Shown piece after piece: positions 1 to 9,102 of a DNA stretch of 64,000 nt. A program made the position numbers and the translations under genes. Every line of letters begins with the position of its first letter. Within the stretch, counting starts at the first letter, position 1. This stretch comes from a virus. The notes beneath the pieces were generated by a model. It was given only the letters and a program-made list of their open reading frames with translations. It searched no databases and had not been told where the DNA came from. The stretch lies in the IMG/VR virus record IMGVR_UViG_3300007516_000014, positions 5,987 to 69,986 of that record. One strand, given 5' to 3'.

Positions 1-1
1 C

Positions 2-313
2 ACGCACGGTATGTTCGTGTGCACGTCGCTGTTCGAGAGCTTCGGAATTTACTATCTGGAGCTGCTGGCCAGCGGCGTCGTGGGTGTCTTCGCGGACGCC
101 CCGTGGCACAAGTCGCTGCTTCCTGGCTATCGCTACACGGCAAAGTCGCAGCATCTGTCAGCCATGATGATGCACGTCCGGGAAAACTACGACGAGGCAC
201 GGCGATATTTGCTCGACGAGGTCCGTCCGGCTATCATCGAGAAGTATTCGATCAGCCGGTTCAACGCCGAGCTGCTTGCTCACGCCCAAGGAGGGGTATC
301 ATGGGTAGCCTAG
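2..313 (+). CDS. GT-B glycosyltransferase, C-terminal fragment (5' end outside window); possible DNA-modification enzyme
   Basis: Frame open from the window edge; FVCTSLFESFGIYYLELLASG carries the E-x7-E motif of GT4/GT-B enzymes. Confidence 0.7.
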   Translation, partial: THGMFVCTSLFESFGIYYLELLASGVVGVFADAPWHKSLLPGYRYTAKSQHLSAMMMHVRENYDEARRYLLDEVRPAIIEKYSISRFNAELLAHAQGGVSWVA

Positions 314-4429: not shown

Positions 4430-4472
4430 GGCCTAGCTAAGGTCCGCATCGGAACCAAGGAGGGTTTTTCCG

Positions 4473-4691
4473 ATGCGGGTTTTAGATCTCAAGCGTGAAC
4501 TTCGTCAGCCGCACATTCACGGCGTGAATGCTGTTGTGTCGATCCCGGCTGGTCCCGGCATGACACCGCAGCCCGTCGTGGTGGCGGTGACGAAGACTGC
4601 CATGAAGAGGGCCGTCGCCCATCTTCCTAGCAAGACGGAAATTTTCGTGACAGTCGAAGGCAATCAGCTTACGATTGGCGAAATCAAGTAG
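4473..4691 (+). CDS. Hypothetical protein
   Basis: SD hairpin plus ATG; 72 aa. Confidence 0.7.
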   Translation: MRVLDLKRELRQPHIHGVNAVVSIPAGPGMTPQPVVVAVTKTAMKRAVAHLPSKTEIFVTVEGNQLTIGEIK

Positions 4692-4707
4692 ACCAAGGAG
4701 GGTCGCA

Positions 4708-6780
4708 GTGAGCAAATTTCATTCTTTCGGACCGTTCATCCAGCCAGGCAATCTGGCGGTGGATGACAAGATGCACCTCGGTGGCAAGGGTGCTGGTCTG
4801 GTCCGCATGTCGTCCATGGGCATCCCGGTGCCTCCCGGCTTCACGATCCCCACTCCGTTCTGTGCGGCCTTCGAGAAGGCGGCGCTCGATAAGGGCGGCT
4901 TCATCGACAGCCTGATGAAGGATGTCCACGAGCACATGCAGGAAGTAGAGGCCGCGCTGGGCTATGCCCCGCTCGTCTCGGTCCGCTCGGGCGCACCGGT
5001 CTCGATGCCGGGCATGATGGACACGATCCTCAACGTCGGCCTGACGAACGCCACCATGGACGCCTGGAAGGCACGGATTGGCGAGCGAGCGGCGCTCGAC
5101 AGCTACCGCCGACTGATCCAGATGCTGGGCTGCACAGCCTACGGCGTCGACCACTCGCTGTTCGAAGCGGAGCTGGTTGCTGCTCGGACTGCCGCGAAAG
5201 TGGCCGCCGACAATCAGCTGAACCCCGTGCAACTGGTTGCACTGATCGCCAAGTACCTCACCATCTTCCACAAGCAGACCGGTTCGACGTTCCCCGACAC
5301 TGTCGAGGCGCAGCTTCACGCGTCCATCGGAGCGGTGTTCGCTTCGTGGCACAACGAGCGGGCCGTGATCTATCGCAAGATGAACGGGATCGATGCCTCG
5401 ATGGGCACTGCGGTGACCGTCCAGGCAATGGTGTTCGGCAACATGAATGACAACAGCGGGTCGGGCGTCCTGTTCTCCCGGAACCCGTCGACCGGCGTCA
5501 ACGAGCTGTACGGTGAGTTCCTGCCGAATGCTCAGGGCGAGGACGTGGTAGCCGGCATCCGGACGCCCCTCCAGCTGATCGACATGCAGCCGCTGTGGCC
5601 GGAAGTTCTCGACCAGCTGAACGATATCGCCTGCAAGCTCGAAGGCGAGTATGCGGATATGGTCGATCTGGAGTTCACGGTGCAGGACAAGGTTCTGTAT
5701 CTGCTCCAGTGCCGGCCCGGTAAGCGCGGTGCCATGGCCGCCTTCCGGATTGCGCGTGATCTGGAGCACGAGACGGTGATCGACAAGAAGACGGCGATCA
5801 GCCGCCTGTCCTCCAGGGAGTACAAACTGACCCGCCAGCCGGTGGTCGATCCCAAGTTCAAGGTTGCTCCCGTGGCGACCGGGCTGTTCGGTTCGACGGG
5901 TGTAGCGGTGGGCAAGCCGGTCTACACGGCAGCTGCTGCAATTGATTGCAAAGAACCCTGCATCCTGGTCACTCACGAGACCGACCCGGATGATGTCGGC
6001 GGAATGTACGCCGCCAAGGGTGTTCTGACCGCCACCGGTGGCCAGACCTCCCACGCTGCGGTGGTAGCGCGCGGAATGAACAAGCCCTGCGTGGTCGGCT
6101 GCATCGGGATCGTCGAGCTGATCAAGAAGTCTCAGGCGAAGATGGTGACCATCGACGGCGCGACGGGCCAGGTATGGCTCGACGTGGTTGTACCGGTTGT
6201 GGATAATTCGGCGGATGAAGCGGTGGCTGAAATCGTCAGCTGGATCGTCAAGTCCGACGTTAGCCCGGTCTGCAAAATACCTTCGAGCGGTCCGGCCATT
6301 GTGCAGGTCGCTGACTGGAAGATGGAGCAGCTCAACATAATGGCCCTTATGTCGCACCCGGACCCTTCGCAGCTCACCTTGGATTTCAGGGCGGCGACAC
6401 AAATCAGTTGCGAGGAAGACGAACCTCTGGCAAGCCTCTACGGAGACGTTGCGCCAATCGGTACACCTGATTTAAGGTGGCTGCTAAAGGCTATTGAGGG
6501 CCTGGGAAGTGCAATGTCTGGTCTCACCGTTATTGGCGCTCCGAGTTCCGAGAAGATGAAAAAGGCTGGCGTGATATTCCTGGCTCGTCCGGTATCGACT
6601 CTGGTCGATATGCTGGACGGGGGTGACATGGCTGTCAGCCCTGCCTTCTCGGCGGTGCTGGAGATGGCCGTGTATGACAAGATCGCTGGCCTGCTCAAGG
6701 ACGCGGGCAAGGAGATCAAAGCGACGGTGCCCGTCTATGGGTTGCCCGCTGAGTATCAGGTTTTCAAGGCATTGAGTTAG
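4708..6780 (+). CDS. PPDK-like dikinase (ATP-grasp plus phospho-His swivel domains, no PEP/pyruvate domain)
   Basis: LGGKGAGL, PVPPGFTI, VSVRSGAPVSMPGMMDTILNVG, QAMVFGN, NAQGEDVVAGIRTP, DLEFT, GGQTSHAAVVARG. The last ~190 aa do not resemble the PPDK TIM barrel. GTG 4708 follows the SD hairpin. Confidence 0.9.
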   Translation: MSKFHSFGPFIQPGNLAVDDKMHLGGKGAGLVRMSSMGIPVPPGFTIPTPFCAAFEKAALDKGGFIDSLMKDVHEHMQEVEAALGYAPLVSVRSGAPVSMPGMMDTILNVGLTNATMDAWKARIGERAALDSYRRLIQMLGCTAYGVDHSLFEAELVAARTAAKVAADNQLNPVQLVALIAKYLTIFHKQTGSTFPDTVEAQLHASIGAVFASWHNERAVIYRKMNGIDASMGTAVTVQAMVFGNMNDNSGSGVLFSRNPSTGVNELYGEFLPNAQGEDVVAGIRTPLQLIDMQPLWPEVLDQLNDIACKLEGEYADMVDLEFTVQDKVLYLLQCRPGKRGAMAAFRIARDLEHETVIDKKTAISRLSSREYKLTRQPVVDPKFKVAPVATGLFGSTGVAVGKPVYTAAAAIDCKEPCILVTHETDPDDVGGMYAAKGVLTATGGQTSHAAVVARGMNKPCVVGCIGIVELIKKSQAKMVTIDGATGQVWLDVVVPVVDNSADEAVAEIVSWIVKSDVSPVCKIPSSGPAIVQVADWKMEQLNIMALMSHPDPSQLTLDFRAATQISCEEDEPLASLYGDVAPIGTPDLRWLLKAIEGLGSAMSGLTVIGAPSSEKMKKAGVIFLARPVSTLVDMLDGGDMAVSPAFSAVLEMAVYDKIAGLLKDAGKEIKATVPVYGLPAEYQVFKALS

Positions 6781-6789
6781 GAGCTTCAG

Positions 6790-7068
6790 ATGGGTTTGGT
6801 TCTCACCATTCGACAGGGCGAAGACTTCTTCGTCGACAACGATCAGTTCTTTTTGGAGAAGATCATATCGGAAGACGAAGTCCGCATCTTCCGCCCCAAG
6901 GATGGGAAGAAGATCACGGCGTCGACCAAAGACATGACCGATATTCAAGACGACGTGAGCGTCCAAGTCGCGGATCGCATCACGAGCAAGGCAGCCCGTC
7001 TGGTTATCGAGGCACCACGGACGAAGCTGATACTGACTGGTGTTAAATTTCGTACACCGCGAACATAG
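6790..7068 (+). CDS. CsrA/RsmA-like RNA-binding protein (apparently two fused CsrA units)
   Basis: LVLTIRQGEDFFV resembles CsrA LILTRRVGETLMI; DDVSVQV...ARLVIEAPRTKLIL resembles DEVTVTV...VRIGVNAPKEVSVH. Confidence 0.65.
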   Translation: MGLVLTIRQGEDFFVDNDQFFLEKIISEDEVRIFRPKDGKKITASTKDMTDIQDDVSVQVADRITSKAARLVIEAPRTKLILTGVKFRTPRT

Positions 7069-7108: not shown

Positions 7109-7408
7109 ATGGCTAGGACATACACGGTATCACCCGCAGTTTTGGAAAGGGCTGTGGAGCTGGGGCTTTATGGGGAGACTGCTGAAGCCCGCATCTTGGA
7201 GATGGCGCGGCGATCAGCCAGGTTCACTCACCCCGATGCCAATCGGCGCTTCAGGCAATACATCATGTTCCTGGAAGCCGATGGTATGGTGACCATGCTG
7301 GACATTATGTCCGGGGAGGAAGCCGACTATTACGACAACCGTTCGTACGCCGAACGCAAAGCCGAGGATGATCCCGGCGAGGCCGAGGTGATCAAGAAGA
7401 AGAGATAG
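7109..7408 (+). CDS. Hypothetical protein
   Basis: 99-aa ORF filling the gap; no motif recognised. Confidence 0.65.
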   Translation: MARTYTVSPAVLERAVELGLYGETAEARILEMARRSARFTHPDANRRFRQYIMFLEADGMVTMLDIMSGEEADYYDNRSYAERKAEDDPGEAEVIKKKR

Positions 7409-7465
7409 CCATTTGCAACAAGCCTGGCCTCAAGCCACAGTAGCTGCCTAACCAAGGAGGGTTTT

Positions 7466-7975
7466 GTGAACAAACACTATGTACCATCGCGTCCCCAGCC
7501 TGTCGGCTTCATGCCGATCCCGGTCGGCCATGGGCGAATGTTCGCCATCGAAGGTGGACCGTTCATCGCGTTCGACCGCAACACGGCGAAGGACGCGTTC
7601 GCCTTGTGCCTCGAAGCCCGGTCAGGAAACGTGGCGACGGCCAGCGTGGCGCTCGATGTGCCGGACTTCAGCACGCCCGATCCCAAGGGCCTCGACAGCG
7701 CGCTCTCCAAGATGGTCGACGCGCTCTACAAGGGCCGCCCGGCGTACATCGGCTGCATGGCAGGGCAGGGCCGAACAGGCCTTGCGATGGCCTGCCTCGC
7801 CCGCGAGTTCGGCGTCATCGAGCCGATCAAGCACGTCCGCCGTTACTACACGTCCCATGCGGTGGAGACGTCCAATCAGGCAGCCTTCGTCAAGGACACC
7901 CCGCTGCCCAAGACCAGGTGGCGCATCCGGATCAACCGTCTCCGCGCTTCTTTGCCCTGGCTCTGGATTTCTTAA
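7466..7975 (+). CDS. Protein-tyrosine/dual-specificity (CX5R) phosphatase
   Basis: VPDF general-acid loop, YIGCMAGQGRTG P-loop, AVETSNQ. Confidence 0.85.
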   Translation: MNKHYVPSRPQPVGFMPIPVGHGRMFAIEGGPFIAFDRNTAKDAFALCLEARSGNVATASVALDVPDFSTPDPKGLDSALSKMVDALYKGRPAYIGCMAGQGRTGLAMACLAREFGVIEPIKHVRRYYTSHAVETSNQAAFVKDTPLPKTRWRIRINRLRASLPWLWIS

Positions 7976-8034
7976 TTGACACTGGTTGGCTCCTAGCCAC
8001 AGTCGAAGACTGAAACGAGACCAAGGAGGGTCCC

Positions 8035-9102
8035 ATGCAACTCGCCCCGACCGACACGCTGGCCTATTTCAAAACGAGAGCGCTGACGGCAGCGCGCTCG
8101 ATGACCGGCGTGCCGTGTGCCACCGTAGCCCAGAAGATTAAATGGGCGACGGACAGTATGGGAGGAGTCCATCCCGAGACCGAGGCGCTGTGGTTCTACA
8201 TGATGAACCACGGCATGTCGGAGATTAGCAAGAATTACGCTGATCTGGAGCCGCTGCCCGACGACGTGCTCAAGTTCGTCAAACACTACTATGACGAGGG
8301 GGCGAAGAAGGCCCTGCGAGCGATGTCGTACCTGATGCTGATCTGCGTGCGCGAGGCTCGCCATCTGAAGAACAAGACGGAGATGAAGTCCGCCATCGTG
8401 GCGTCATCGTCCTTGGAGATGTGGCAGTATTTGGGCCTCGTCCCGGACGACGCCATGATGGCCCAGGAGATGTTCGCCAGCAGCCCTCCCAAGTGCGATG
8501 TGGCGACCTTCTGCAAGGGGCTGGCCTTCCAGTTCTACAACGGTTCGTATAGCAACAGCTACGGCGGCGCGAAGTGGGGTGTAGTCGCAGACTGCCTCAA
8601 GAAGTTCGTGACCGGCGAGGTGACTGCCGAGATTATGCTCGATACGATCTGGACTCTATGCCATAACGGAGGCCCTATATTCAACAAGGGCGTTTTGTAT
8701 CAGCACCACGATAAGGCTGCCCTGACGCGCATTCTCGACGTCCAGCGCGGTGGTCAGATACCGCAGATGATCGCCACGTACGACAAGGTCGAGCATTACC
8801 TGTTGCCCGACATGATCGTACGGAACAACTGGCTGCGGTCGAGGTTCCCGGCGACGACAACGGGTGATCTCGATTGGGAAATCATTCAGAAACTCGGCGC
8901 GGTCGGCGATTATAAGGCCGAGATCCATAACGCCAAGATGATGACGCCTGAGTACAAGGCGCAGCTGGCTGCGGAGAAGGTTGCTGCTCAGGCCGCTGCG
9001 ATCAAGCATGCGGCGGACCAGGCGAAGAAATTCGCCAACATGTATCAAGTCACCACGGACGTATGGGTGGACAAGTTCCAGCCAGAGCGGGAGGCAGTGT
9101 GA
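8035..9102 (+). CDS. Hypothetical protein
   Basis: 355 aa with SD hairpin; conserved-looking YGGAKW and LCHNGGPIFNKG segments. Confidence 0.8.
   Translation: MQLAPTDTLAYFKTRALTAARSMTGVPCATVAQKIKWATDSMGGVHPETEALWFYMMNHGMSEISKNYADLEPLPDDVLKFVKHYYDEGAKKALRAMSYLMLICVREARHLKNKTEMKSAIVASSSLEMWQYLGLVPDDAMMAQEMFASSPPKCDVATFCKGLAFQFYNGSYSNSYGGAKWGVVADCLKKFVTGEVTAEIMLDTIWTLCHNGGPIFNKGVLYQHHDKAALTRILDVQRGGQIPQMIATYDKVEHYLLPDMIVRNNWLRSRFPATTTGDLDWEIIQKLGAVGDYKAEIHNAKMMTPEYKAQLAAEKVAAQAAAIKHAADQAKKFANMYQVTTDVWVDKFQPEREAV

What the first reader, a model, noticed from the sequence alone, without database searches (positions are those of the whole stretch)
6790..7068. Apparent single-chain tandem CsrA pseudo-dimer
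Seen: the 92-aa protein aligns by eye to CsrA twice. Residues 1-40 (LVLTIRQGEDFFVDND...EVRIFRPK) match strands 1-4; residues 41-85 (KITASTKDMTDIQDDVSVQV...ARLVIEAPRTKLIL) match strands 1-5. Known: CsrA is a dimer whose RNA site is formed by strand 1 of one subunit and strands 4-5 of the other. Those are the best-conserved parts here, which predicts a monomer with one RNA site, consistent with mostly one hairpin per gene. Caveat: the position equivalent to CsrA Arg44 appears to be Thr, so specificity may differ or the protein may be a decoy.
Basis: partly seen in the sequence, partly recalled or inferred. Interest (0 to 1): 0.85.

Follow-up and report, generated by a model that had tools for sequence, protein, structure and literature searches.

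The report
Single-chain CsrA-like phage protein
A small phage protein appears to pack both halves of the normally two-chain RNA regulator CsrA into one chain, leaving a single likely RNA-binding face, and it is paired, and in some phages fused, with a toxin-like neighbour.

Summary
ORF 6790-7068 encodes the 92-aa protein as quoted. It belongs to a phage family of at least 89 clusters at 50% identity. 58 of 81 aligned members match Pfam CsrA at E<=0.01, but this member scores below the curated cut-off.

Residues 37-92 superpose on a whole RsmA chain. Strands from both ends superpose on one RsmN chain. Together these fit the CsrA dimer sandwich made by one chain. The best-conserved parts are strand 1 of the N-half and strands 4-5 of the C-half.

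New here:
- The gene sits in a fixed module: PPDK-like, this gene, small ORF, phosphatase.
- The small ORF is fused to the CsrA-like domain in 8 of 89 relatives and models with a RelE/ParE-like fold.
- The window's protein lies in a clade of 16 that all lack the key Arg44 equivalent.

RNA binding, monomer state and any link to the CsrA-type ribosome-site hairpins remain untested. The same scan noted those hairpins on this window only.

The parts
6779..6783 (+). Plain Shine-Dalgarno AGGAG of the CsrA-like gene. It is not embedded in a CsrA-type hairpin.
   Evidence: Read directly from the sequence. No stem>=4 CANGGANG site lies before 6790.
6790..7068 (+). CsrA-like single-chain protein, 92 aa plus stop (P0001).
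   Evidence: ORF and translation. Pfam CsrA E 2.1e-4. 89 HMMER relatives. AF2 pLDDT 95.1, pTM 0.83.
6790..6897 (+). N-half, residues 1-36. It holds strands equivalent to CsrA beta1-beta4 and lacks beta5 and the helix.
   Evidence: Strands 2-8, 12-15, 18-27 and 30-35. hhalign 2-35 to CsrA 1-34, E 0.0012. PDB profile positions 3-20 to CsrA 2-19.
6898..7065 (+). C-half, residues 37-92. A full CsrA-subunit equivalent: beta1-beta5 plus helix.
   Evidence: Strands 40-45, 50-53, 56-64, 68-74, 81-83 and helix 84-88. 1vpz_A aligned over model 37..92, 55 of 57 residues, rmsd 2.2. hhalign 47-92 to CsrA 9-53, E 2.9e-5.
7036..7038 (+). Codon ACT for Thr83, at the position of CsrA Arg44.
   Evidence: Sequence. 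This column is Arg in 59 of 81 aligned members. All 16 rows of the window's clade lack Arg or Lys here.
7109..7408 (+). Conserved downstream partner ORF (99 aa). It is fused to the CsrA-like domain in some relatives and models with a RelE/ParE-like fold.
   Evidence: blastp against 8 fused relatives, E 3e-27 to 2.5e-8. An ORF at this place in every related locus read. Fold matches. No Pfam or PHROG family.
4691..4704 (+). CsrA-type hairpin GACC-AAGGAG-GGTC before GTG 4708, the likely true start of the PPDK-like gene. A candidate target; this is inferred.
   Evidence: Stem of 4 pairs around CAAGGAGG, followed by a 690-aa ORF.
7450..7463 (+). CsrA-type hairpin AACC-AAGGAG-GGTT before the phosphatase gene that starts at 7466. 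A candidate target; this is inferred.
   Evidence: Stem of 4 pairs, followed by a 169-aa ORF.
8019..8032 (+). CsrA-type hairpin GACC-AAGGAG-GGTC before the 355-aa gene that starts at 8035. A candidate target; this is inferred.
   Evidence: Stem of 4 pairs.

Best explanation
The ORF encodes a member of a phage family that descends from CsrA. One chain builds nine of the ten strands of the CsrA dimer sandwich. The N-half gives strands 1-4. The C-half gives strands 1-5 and the helix. A short hairpin joins strand 4 of the first half to strand 1 of the second.

A single chain therefore rebuilds one CsrA-type RNA face, made of N-terminal strand 1 with C-terminal strand 5 and the helix. The second face is lost because the first half has no strand 5. 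The likeliest origin is a tandem duplication and fusion, followed by loss of the first copy's strand 5 and helix (inferred).

The protein works with the small RelE/ParE-fold protein encoded just downstream, inside a fixed module of PPDK-like enzyme and phosphatases. The most likely activity is one-to-one binding of single GGA-type RNA loops, such as the hairpins at this phage's ribosome sites. It would act either as a translational regulator or as the RNA-recognition part for its partner (inferred).

In the window's clade the key arginine is replaced (Thr83). Binding strength or specificity must differ there, and the partner may carry more of the function.

Shown by computation: homology, predicted fold, conservation pattern, synteny and fusions. 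Inferred: monomer state, RNA binding, targets.

The confidence of 0.55 is for the whole statement. Taken alone, the single-chain CsrA-like architecture is about 0.85 and RNA binding by this member about 0.45.
For: Homology to CsrA:
- Pfam CsrA matches 58 of 81 members at E<=0.01.
- The nine best PDB profile hits are all CsrA-family chains.

Fold:
- AF2 pLDDT 95.1, pTM 0.83, nine strands plus a helix.
- The same nine strands appear in an independent model of a fused relative.
- RsmA chain 1vpz_A fits model 37..92 (55 of 57 residues, rmsd 2.2). In the second model it fits 37..94 (57 of 57 residues, rmsd 1.8).
- RsmN chains fit model 1..87 with 50 residues at 32% identity, rmsd 1.9.
- The published strand orders make these two fits jointly diagnostic of the dimer-like sandwich.
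- Ten BFVD viral proteins share the whole-chain fold at E<=0.001. One is named carbon storage regulator.

Conservation, in bits:
- High: strand 1 of the N-half 2.92, strand 2 of the N-half 3.26, strand 5 of the C-half 2.86, the AP loop 2.55.
- Low: strand 1 of the C-half 1.57, strand 4 of the N-half 1.67.
- The CsrA RNA face is made of strand 1 and strand 5 of opposing subunits (review passage).

Partner:
- 8 of 89 relatives are fusions with it.
- Gene order holds in 23 of 23 loci for the PPDK and phosphatase hits.

Candidate targets:
- CAAGGAGG occurs 30 times on the + strand and 0 on the - strand, against 2.24 expected.
- 31 CANGGANG sites have stems of 4 pairs or more, and 25 of them precede ORFs of 40 aa or more.
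- Six-base GGA loops on short stems match the SELEX picture of CsrA sites.
Against: - This member scores below Pfam's cut-off: 21.6 against 27 bits.
- Thr83 replaces the arginine. Its loss in RsmN lowers hairpin affinity more than 1000-fold (paper passage).
- The window's whole clade of 16 lacks this arginine, and 7 of 8 fused forms lack it. RNA binding by the classic mode is therefore doubtful here.
- Hairpins with stems of 4 pairs or more are absent from the module region in 11 of 23 related loci, some of which carry Arg-bearing proteins. Protein and hairpins are not strictly coupled.
- The gene itself and its partner have no such hairpin.
- The halves show no similarity to each other, and N-half support beyond strand 2 is weak (probability 19%). 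Duplication is inferred, not shown.
- No coordinates were available, so the model was never superposed on a CsrA dimer.
- Structural Z-scores to CsrA chains are modest (4.6-4.9). Generic beta-sandwich domains score higher, up to 8.8.
Confidence: 0.55

Rival explanations
1. Toxin-antitoxin-like or inhibitor pair. The CsrA-derived sandwich has been re-used as a protein binder that holds the RelE/ParE-fold neighbour in check or delivers it. It no longer binds RNA, at least in the Arg-less clade.
For: - The gene order and sizes resemble type II pairs: a small upstream gene, then a 67-102 aa RelE/ParE-fold gene. The two are often overlapping or abutting.
- The partner's fold matches colicin D, MqsR, ParE, RelE, BrnT and CdiA-CT chains at Z 4-7.1 over 57-72 residues. 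It also matches a ParE_toxin cluster in the Atlas.
- The Arg-less clade holds 6 of the 8 fusions.
Against: - The pair sits at one fixed place in a conserved six-gene module in all loci read, unlike mobile toxin-antitoxin cassettes.
- Fusing a toxin to its antitoxin is unusual.
- The conserved residues of the CsrA-like part map to the RNA face of CsrA.
- The partner has no sequence match to any toxin family, and its fold Z-scores are below 8.
Confidence: 0.2
2. A CsrA with a long insert that still pairs up. Two chains associate, for example through the exposed edge strand left by the missing strand 5, giving a particle with two RNA faces like ordinary CsrA.
For: - Profile alignments read the family as CsrA 2-19, then a 33-37 residue insert, then CsrA 17-56. 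This is formally like RsmN, which has an insert between strands 2 and 3 and is a dimer.
- One sheet has only four strands, leaving a free edge.
Against: - The insert itself folds into four strands that fill the partner subunit's places.
- The monomer model is compact and confident (pTM 0.83).
- No evidence for pairing was obtained.
Confidence: 0.1
3. A decoy or competitor of the host Csr/Rsm system. The protein mimics CsrA to soak up host sponge RNAs or host CsrA partners, or it shields phage hairpins from host CsrA, rather than regulating phage genes itself.
For: - Phage CsrA homologues have been proposed to manipulate hosts (paper passages).
- The phage's own ribosome-site hairpins fit host CsrA sites too.
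Against: - The host is unknown, and no host Csr system was examined.
- Canonical phage CsrAs are described as highly similar to bacterial ones, and this one is not.
- The fixed pairing with a partner protein is not explained.
Confidence: 0.08
4. Not CsrA-related. A generic small beta-sandwich whose likeness to CsrA is a modelling and profile artefact.
For: - Foldseek found no PDB match at E<=0.001.
- Higher VIA Z-scores go to unrelated sandwich domains: CcsBA 8.8, class II fusion proteins about 7.
- phmmer with the single sequence finds no CsrA in the PDB.
Against: - The sequence evidence is independent of the fold: 58 of 81 members hit Pfam CsrA, best 8.1e-8.
- The nine top PDB profile hits are all CsrA family.
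- Identity to RsmN over the aligned strands is 32%.
- Atlas neighbour clusters carry PF02599.
Confidence: 0.03

Closest known systems
CsrA / RsmA / RsmE (Pfam PF02599), the strand-swapped homodimeric RNA regulators
   Same: - The sequence motifs of strand 1 (LVLT.R.GE) and of strands 4-5 (R..I.AP....I) are shared.
- The subunit fold of the C-half is the same.
- The five-strand sheet order is reproduced.
- The conserved face equals the RNA face, formed by strand 1 and strand 5 of opposing subunits.
   Different: - One chain of 92 aa replaces two chains of about 61 aa.
- The first copy lacks strand 5 and the helix, so only one RNA face can exist.
- This member has Thr at the Arg44 position and scores below Pfam's cut-off.
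RsmN / RsmF of Pseudomonas aeruginosa, a rearranged CsrA with an insert between strands 2 and 3
   Same: - Both carry an insert at the same point of the CsrA sequence.
- In both, strand 1 and strand 5 of one chain serve one RNA face, and each RsmN monomer contacts one hairpin.
- It is the best structural and sequence match among solved chains: 50 residues, 32% identity, rmsd 1.9.
   Different: - The RsmN insert is a 16-residue helix, and the protein is still a dimer of docked monomers.
- Here the insert is four beta strands that replace the second subunit.
Engineered CsrA heterodimers with one face disabled (R44A in one subunit; Mercante et al. 2009, as described in a review)
   Same: Both are CsrA particles with a single working RNA face, unable to bridge two sites (review passage).
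   Different: Those are laboratory constructs of two chains. This is a natural single chain found across phages.
Canonical phage-encoded CsrA/RsmA homologues (Campa et al. 2021; phage PTXU04 gp28)
   Same: Both are phage-borne proteins of the CsrA lineage.
   Different: - Those are described as highly similar to bacterial CsrA.
- This family is about 1.5 times longer, single-chain, tied to a PPDK-phosphatase module and paired with a RelE/ParE-fold protein.
- The syntenic 160-aa gene of Vibrio phage J26 is labelled CsrA in its record and paper, without any note of this architecture.

Membership tests
CsrA family (Pfam PF02599) | Score at or above Pfam's curated cut-off of 27 bits | tested here: not met
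   This protein scores 21.6 bits, E 2.1e-4. Across the family, 58 of 81 members match at E<=0.01, best 8.1e-8. How many pass 27 bits was not listed.
CsrA family (Pfam PF02599) | Subunit fold of five strands followed by a short helix | tested here: met
   For the C-half, 1vpz_A aligns 55 of 57 residues to model 37..92 at rmsd 2.2, Z 4.6. In the second model it aligns 57 of 57 residues at rmsd 1.8. These are predicted models, not solved structures.
CsrA family (Pfam PF02599) | Strand-swapped homodimer of two identical chains with two RNA faces | tested here: inconclusive
   The model places N-half strands where the second chain would be. The oligomeric state was not determined.
CsrA family (Pfam PF02599) | Conserved arginine equivalent to Arg44, needed for RNA binding | tested here: not met
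   Thr83 in this protein. Arg in 59 of 81 aligned members. None of the 16 rows in the window's clade has Arg or Lys.
CsrA family (Pfam PF02599) | Binding of GGA motifs in RNA loops | not testable with these tools
Candidate sites exist in the window.
RsmN/RsmF subfamily | Alpha-helical insert between strands 2 and 3, with no C-terminal helix | tested here: not met
   Residues 18-53 are modelled as four strands, and a C-terminal helix at 84-88 is present. The RsmN features are taken from the paper.
RelE/ParE toxin superfamily (for the downstream partner, 7109-7408) | Two N-terminal helices followed by a small antiparallel sheet, with sequence membership in a toxin family | tested here: inconclusive
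   Fold matches at Z 4-7.1 to colicin D, MqsR, ParE, RelE, BrnT and CdiA-CT chains. Atlas match to a ParE_toxin cluster at TM 0.49/0.55. No Pfam, PHROG or PDB sequence match.

The most novel reading that the evidence does not exclude
The CsrA-derived single chain is a one-site RNA-recognition module that brings its RelE/ParE-fold partner to GGA hairpins at ribosome-binding sites. In some phages the partner is fused to it in one protein. Together they would form a two-part, hairpin-targeted mRNA nuclease or translation switch. Phages of the PPDK group would use it on their own or on host messages.
Probability: 0.17. Interest if true: 0.9.

Novelty: new variant of a known kind. Interest (0 to 1): 0.7.

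Why it matters
CsrA is a textbook obligate homodimer, and its two RNA faces explain how it bridges sites on a message. A natural single-chain form with one face would be a ready-made tool for asking what one-site binding does. It would also show how a swapped dimer can become a monomer by duplication and fusion.

Its fixed pairing and occasional fusion with a toxin-fold protein, inside a conserved phage module, points to an unstudied layer of post-transcriptional control in a group of roughly 80-100 kb phages. These infect Vibrio, Stenotrophomonas, Rhizobium and Rhodobacter. Isolated relatives such as RcZahn make it testable.

Tried and rejected
- **Word-index search.** With the protein as query it found only itself.
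- **phmmer against PDB.** The single sequence gave no CsrA chain.
- **Foldseek against PDB.** It gave no match at E<=0.001. The best was RsmF at E 0.068. The second model behaved likewise.
- **Higher-scoring VIA rows.** I set these aside as generic sandwiches: CcsBA 7s9y at Z 8.8, CcmF, and domain I of class II fusion proteins at about Z 7. They are parts of large unrelated proteins, have no sequence support, and mostly fall under the tool's own caution line of Z 8.
- **N-half against C-half.** Direct comparison gave nothing in global or local mode.
- **CsrA reference alignments.** Both are shallow: all listed hits were 88% identical to E. coli CsrA or more, and the genome loci were 77% or more. 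The half-versus-CsrA probabilities are therefore probably underestimates.
- **Homodimer test.** Complex prediction with two copies returned 'no answer', score 0.00 against a mark of 0.42. It counts neither for nor against pairing.
- **Partner protein.** No Pfam or PHROG family and no PDB sequence match with a 13-row profile.
- **Compensating lysine.** I considered a lysine two residues upstream (Lys79) making up for the lost arginine. By eye from the listing, Lys79 occurs in 5 Arg-less rows and 4 Arg-bearing rows. This is too weak and was not tested formally.
- **Tree.** The tree is the quick version, because the careful search did not finish. Many forks are open. I use only the clade of 16, which has SH-aLRT 93.
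- **Redundant loci.** Several IMG/VR loci are near-copies of each other (L011/L012; L016/L017/L024; L019/L020/L025). The 23 loci therefore stand for roughly 16 independent ones.
- **Papers.** Searches for a single-chain, tandem or pseudo-dimeric CsrA found nothing relevant (search listings; word finds). Supplements were not seen and could hold such forms.
- **Not attempted.** Expression was not examined: the look-up of sequencing runs and read laying were not used. No model coordinates are given by the tools, so no superposition on a CsrA dimer and no electrostatics were possible.

Full report
**What is there.** The window is 60% G+C. It is most of a 69,986-base virus record that CheckV rates 74% complete. 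It lies directly after a PPDK-like gene. The only near matches by DNA are the PPDK genes of Rhizobium phage RHph_TM16 and Stenotrophomonas phage Summit.

**A real family.**
- A word-index search found only the protein itself.
- An exhaustive HMMER search of 1.84 billion cluster representatives found 89 proteins at E<=0.001, 8 of them at E<=1e-10. Nearly all match from residue 1 to about residue 90, and most are 77-118 aa long.
- tblastn finds relatives in the isolated phages RcZahn (gp7) and RHph_Y1_11, and the syntenic TM16 gene aligns too. All three are annotated as hypothetical.
- A family profile also detects a divergent copy in Summit.
- I aligned the query with 80 of the 89 hits to give A2. 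I left out eight long proteins and P0013.

**CsrA descent.**
- Pfam CsrA matches this protein at E 2.1e-4, 21.6 bits, below the 27-bit cut-off.
- It matches 58 of the 81 aligned members at E<=0.01, best 8.1e-8.
- The A2 profile searched against all PDB sequences returns nine CsrA-family chains as its best hits: CsrA, RsmE, RsmF and RsmN. Two aligned pieces appear, profile 3-20 to CsrA 2-19 and profile 53-93 to CsrA 17-56.
- Atlas neighbours are clusters of 88-100 aa. Some carry PF02599 or automatic 'carbon storage regulator' names.

**The fold.** AlphaFold2 with A2 gives mean pLDDT 95.1 and pTM 0.83 for the monomer. Its strands are 2-8, 12-15, 18-27, 30-35, 40-45, 50-53, 56-64, 68-74 and 81-83, followed by helix 84-88. 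A second, independent model of the natural fusion protein P0011 shows the same nine strands.

No coordinates are returned, so I tested the topology through chain superpositions.
- The RsmA chain 1vpz_A aligns 55 of its 57 residues to model 37..92 at rmsd 2.2, Z 4.6. In the second model it aligns 57 of 57 residues to 37..94 at rmsd 1.8.
- RsmN/RsmF chains align 50 residues at 32% identity and rmsd 1.9-2.1 across model 1..87.
- The RsmN paper gives the sheet orders. RsmA has b5A-b2B-b3B-b4B-b1A. RsmN has b5A-b2A-b3B-b4B-b1B (passages read).
- A chain in which the C-half has the RsmA-chain shape, while N-terminal strands 1-2 together with C-terminal strands 3-5 have the RsmN-chain arrangement, must place N-half strands 1-2 in the 'other subunit' positions of a CsrA dimer. 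This is inference from two fits, not a direct superposition on a dimer.

The Z-scores are modest, because a lone CsrA chain is not globular. Generic sandwich domains score higher, up to Z 8.8. Foldseek finds ten viral proteins in BFVD that share the whole-chain fold at E<=0.001, with TM by query 0.64-0.92. One is named carbon storage regulator.

**Duplication or insertion.**
- In profile-profile comparison the N-half aligns ungapped to CsrA 1-34 (E 0.0012, probability 19%).
- The C-half, residues 47-92, aligns to CsrA 9-53 (E 2.9e-5, probability 74%).
- The two halves show no similarity to each other.
- The CsrA reference alignments were shallow.

I favour tandem duplication and fusion with loss of the first copy's strand 5 and helix. 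Four inserted strands that happen to copy a partner subunit are otherwise hard to explain. This remains an inference.

**One face.** The CsrA RNA surface is built from strand 1 and strand 5 of opposing subunits (review passage). The family's most conserved elements are strand 1 of the N-half (2.92 bits), strand 2 of the N-half (3.26), the AP loop (2.55) and strand 5 of the C-half (2.86). The least conserved are strand 1 of the C-half (1.57) and strand 4 of the N-half (1.67). One face is therefore kept. The other cannot form, because the first half has no strand 5.

**The arginine.** The Arg44 equivalent is Thr83 here. Across A2 this column is Arg in 59 of 81 rows, Lys in 3, Thr in 6, Ser in 4, Pro in 3 and Ile in 2. 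In a quick tree of all 90 rows, the window's protein sits in a clade of 16 (SH-aLRT 93) in which no row has Arg or Lys. The loss is old and stable, not decay. In RsmN the same change lowers hairpin affinity more than 1000-fold, while the GGA bases are read largely by backbone groups of strand 5 (paper passages).

**A partner.**
- Eight of the 89 relatives (181-227 aa) carry, after the CsrA-like domain, a homologue of the next ORF in the window, 7109-7408. blastp E-values run from 3e-27 to 2.5e-8.
- Seven of these eight fusions lack the arginine, and six lie in the window's clade.
- In 23 related loci the order PPDK-like, CsrA-like, small ORF, phosphatase, 355-aa gene, phosphatase recurs.
- The PPDK and first-phosphatase hits are present in 23 of 23 loci.
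- The small ORF is found by tblastn in 19 of 23. In three of the other four (L005, L014, L018), reading the ORFs shows it at the same place.
- The remaining locus is L009, Vibrio phage J26. There the gene at that place is a 160-aa protein labelled 'sRNA-binding carbon storage regulator CsrA'. Its only family hints are PHROG 23332 of unknown function and a weak CsrA-like PHROG at E 0.008.
- Several loci are near-copies, so roughly 16 are independent.

The partner has no Pfam, PHROG or PDB sequence match. In the fusion model (pLDDT 90, pTM 0.60) its residues 103-178 match RelE/ParE-superfamily chains: colicin D at Z 5.6, MqsR 4.8, ParE 4.8, and RelE, BrnT and CdiA-CT at about 4. An uncharacterised archaeal protein scores Z 7.1. 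The Atlas's own model of the window's partner is matched by ParE_toxin and DUF4258 clusters, at TM 0.49-0.55. These are leads, not proof.

**Possible targets.**
- CAAGGAGG occurs 30 times on the + strand and never on the - strand, against 2.24 expected.
- Of 78 CANGGANG sites on the + strand, 31 have flanks that pair for four or more base pairs, and 25 of those sit before ORFs of 40 aa or more. On the - strand only 1 of 18 pairs so.
- Six-base GGA loops on short stems fit the SELEX description of strong CsrA sites (review passage).
- The motif is also strand-biased in relatives: 64 to 0 in the contig of L005, 35 to 0 in RcZahn, 10 to 1 in TM16, 9 to 1 in Y1_11 and 4 to 0 in Summit.
- Against a strict link, 11 of 23 related loci have no such hairpin in the module region.
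- The CsrA-like gene and its partner lack one themselves.
- The window has many hairpins despite Thr83.

**What is known.** Papers describe phage CsrA homologues as highly similar to bacterial ones (passages). One phage csrA knockdown reduced plaque size (passage). Word searches for pseudo-dimer, single-chain, tandem, fused or monomeric CsrA found no description of this architecture. Supplements were closed.

**Verdict.** Function is open. I rate one-site RNA binding together with the partner as most likely, a toxin-antitoxin-like protein pair as the main rival, and a homodimer as a lesser rival.

Noticed in passing
window 7109-7408 (+): The 99-aa ORF after the CsrA-like gene is conserved at this place in all related loci read. 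It carries invariant G19, A33, A37, T40, N45 and R47 across 13 homologues, and it models as a RelE/ParE-like fold. The window's copy has a C-terminal tail that is shared with the fused forms.
   Followed up: partly
window 4675-4708: The PPDK-like gene probably starts at GTG 4708 (690 aa), just after a CsrA-type hairpin at 4691-4704, not at the TTG 4675 given by the longest-ORF rule.
   Followed up: partly
window 6897-6904: A CAAGGATG motif with a 3-bp flanking stem lies inside the CsrA-like gene's own coding sequence (codons 36-39). It is probably chance.
   Followed up: no
L002 7756-8516 (Summit) and L010 4942-5701 (DLP5): In the Stenotrophomonas phages an extra 138-aa gene with CxxC pairs sits between the PPDK gene and a divergent 113-aa family member that has a longer middle insert.
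   Followed up: partly
L024 2113-2414: The family gene is split into two overlapping frames in this IMG/VR contig. This is a frameshift or a sequencing error. The near-identical loci L016 and L017 are intact.
   Followed up: no
model of window 6790-7068: The best structural match of the whole chain is the periplasmic beta-sandwich of the haem lyases CcsBA and CcmF (Z 8.8 and 6.8, 76-77 residues). I took it as a shared generic sandwich.
   Followed up: no
window 4451-4468: The hairpin before ATG 4473 has the longest simple stem among those at the module head: 6 pairs by my count.
   Followed up: partly
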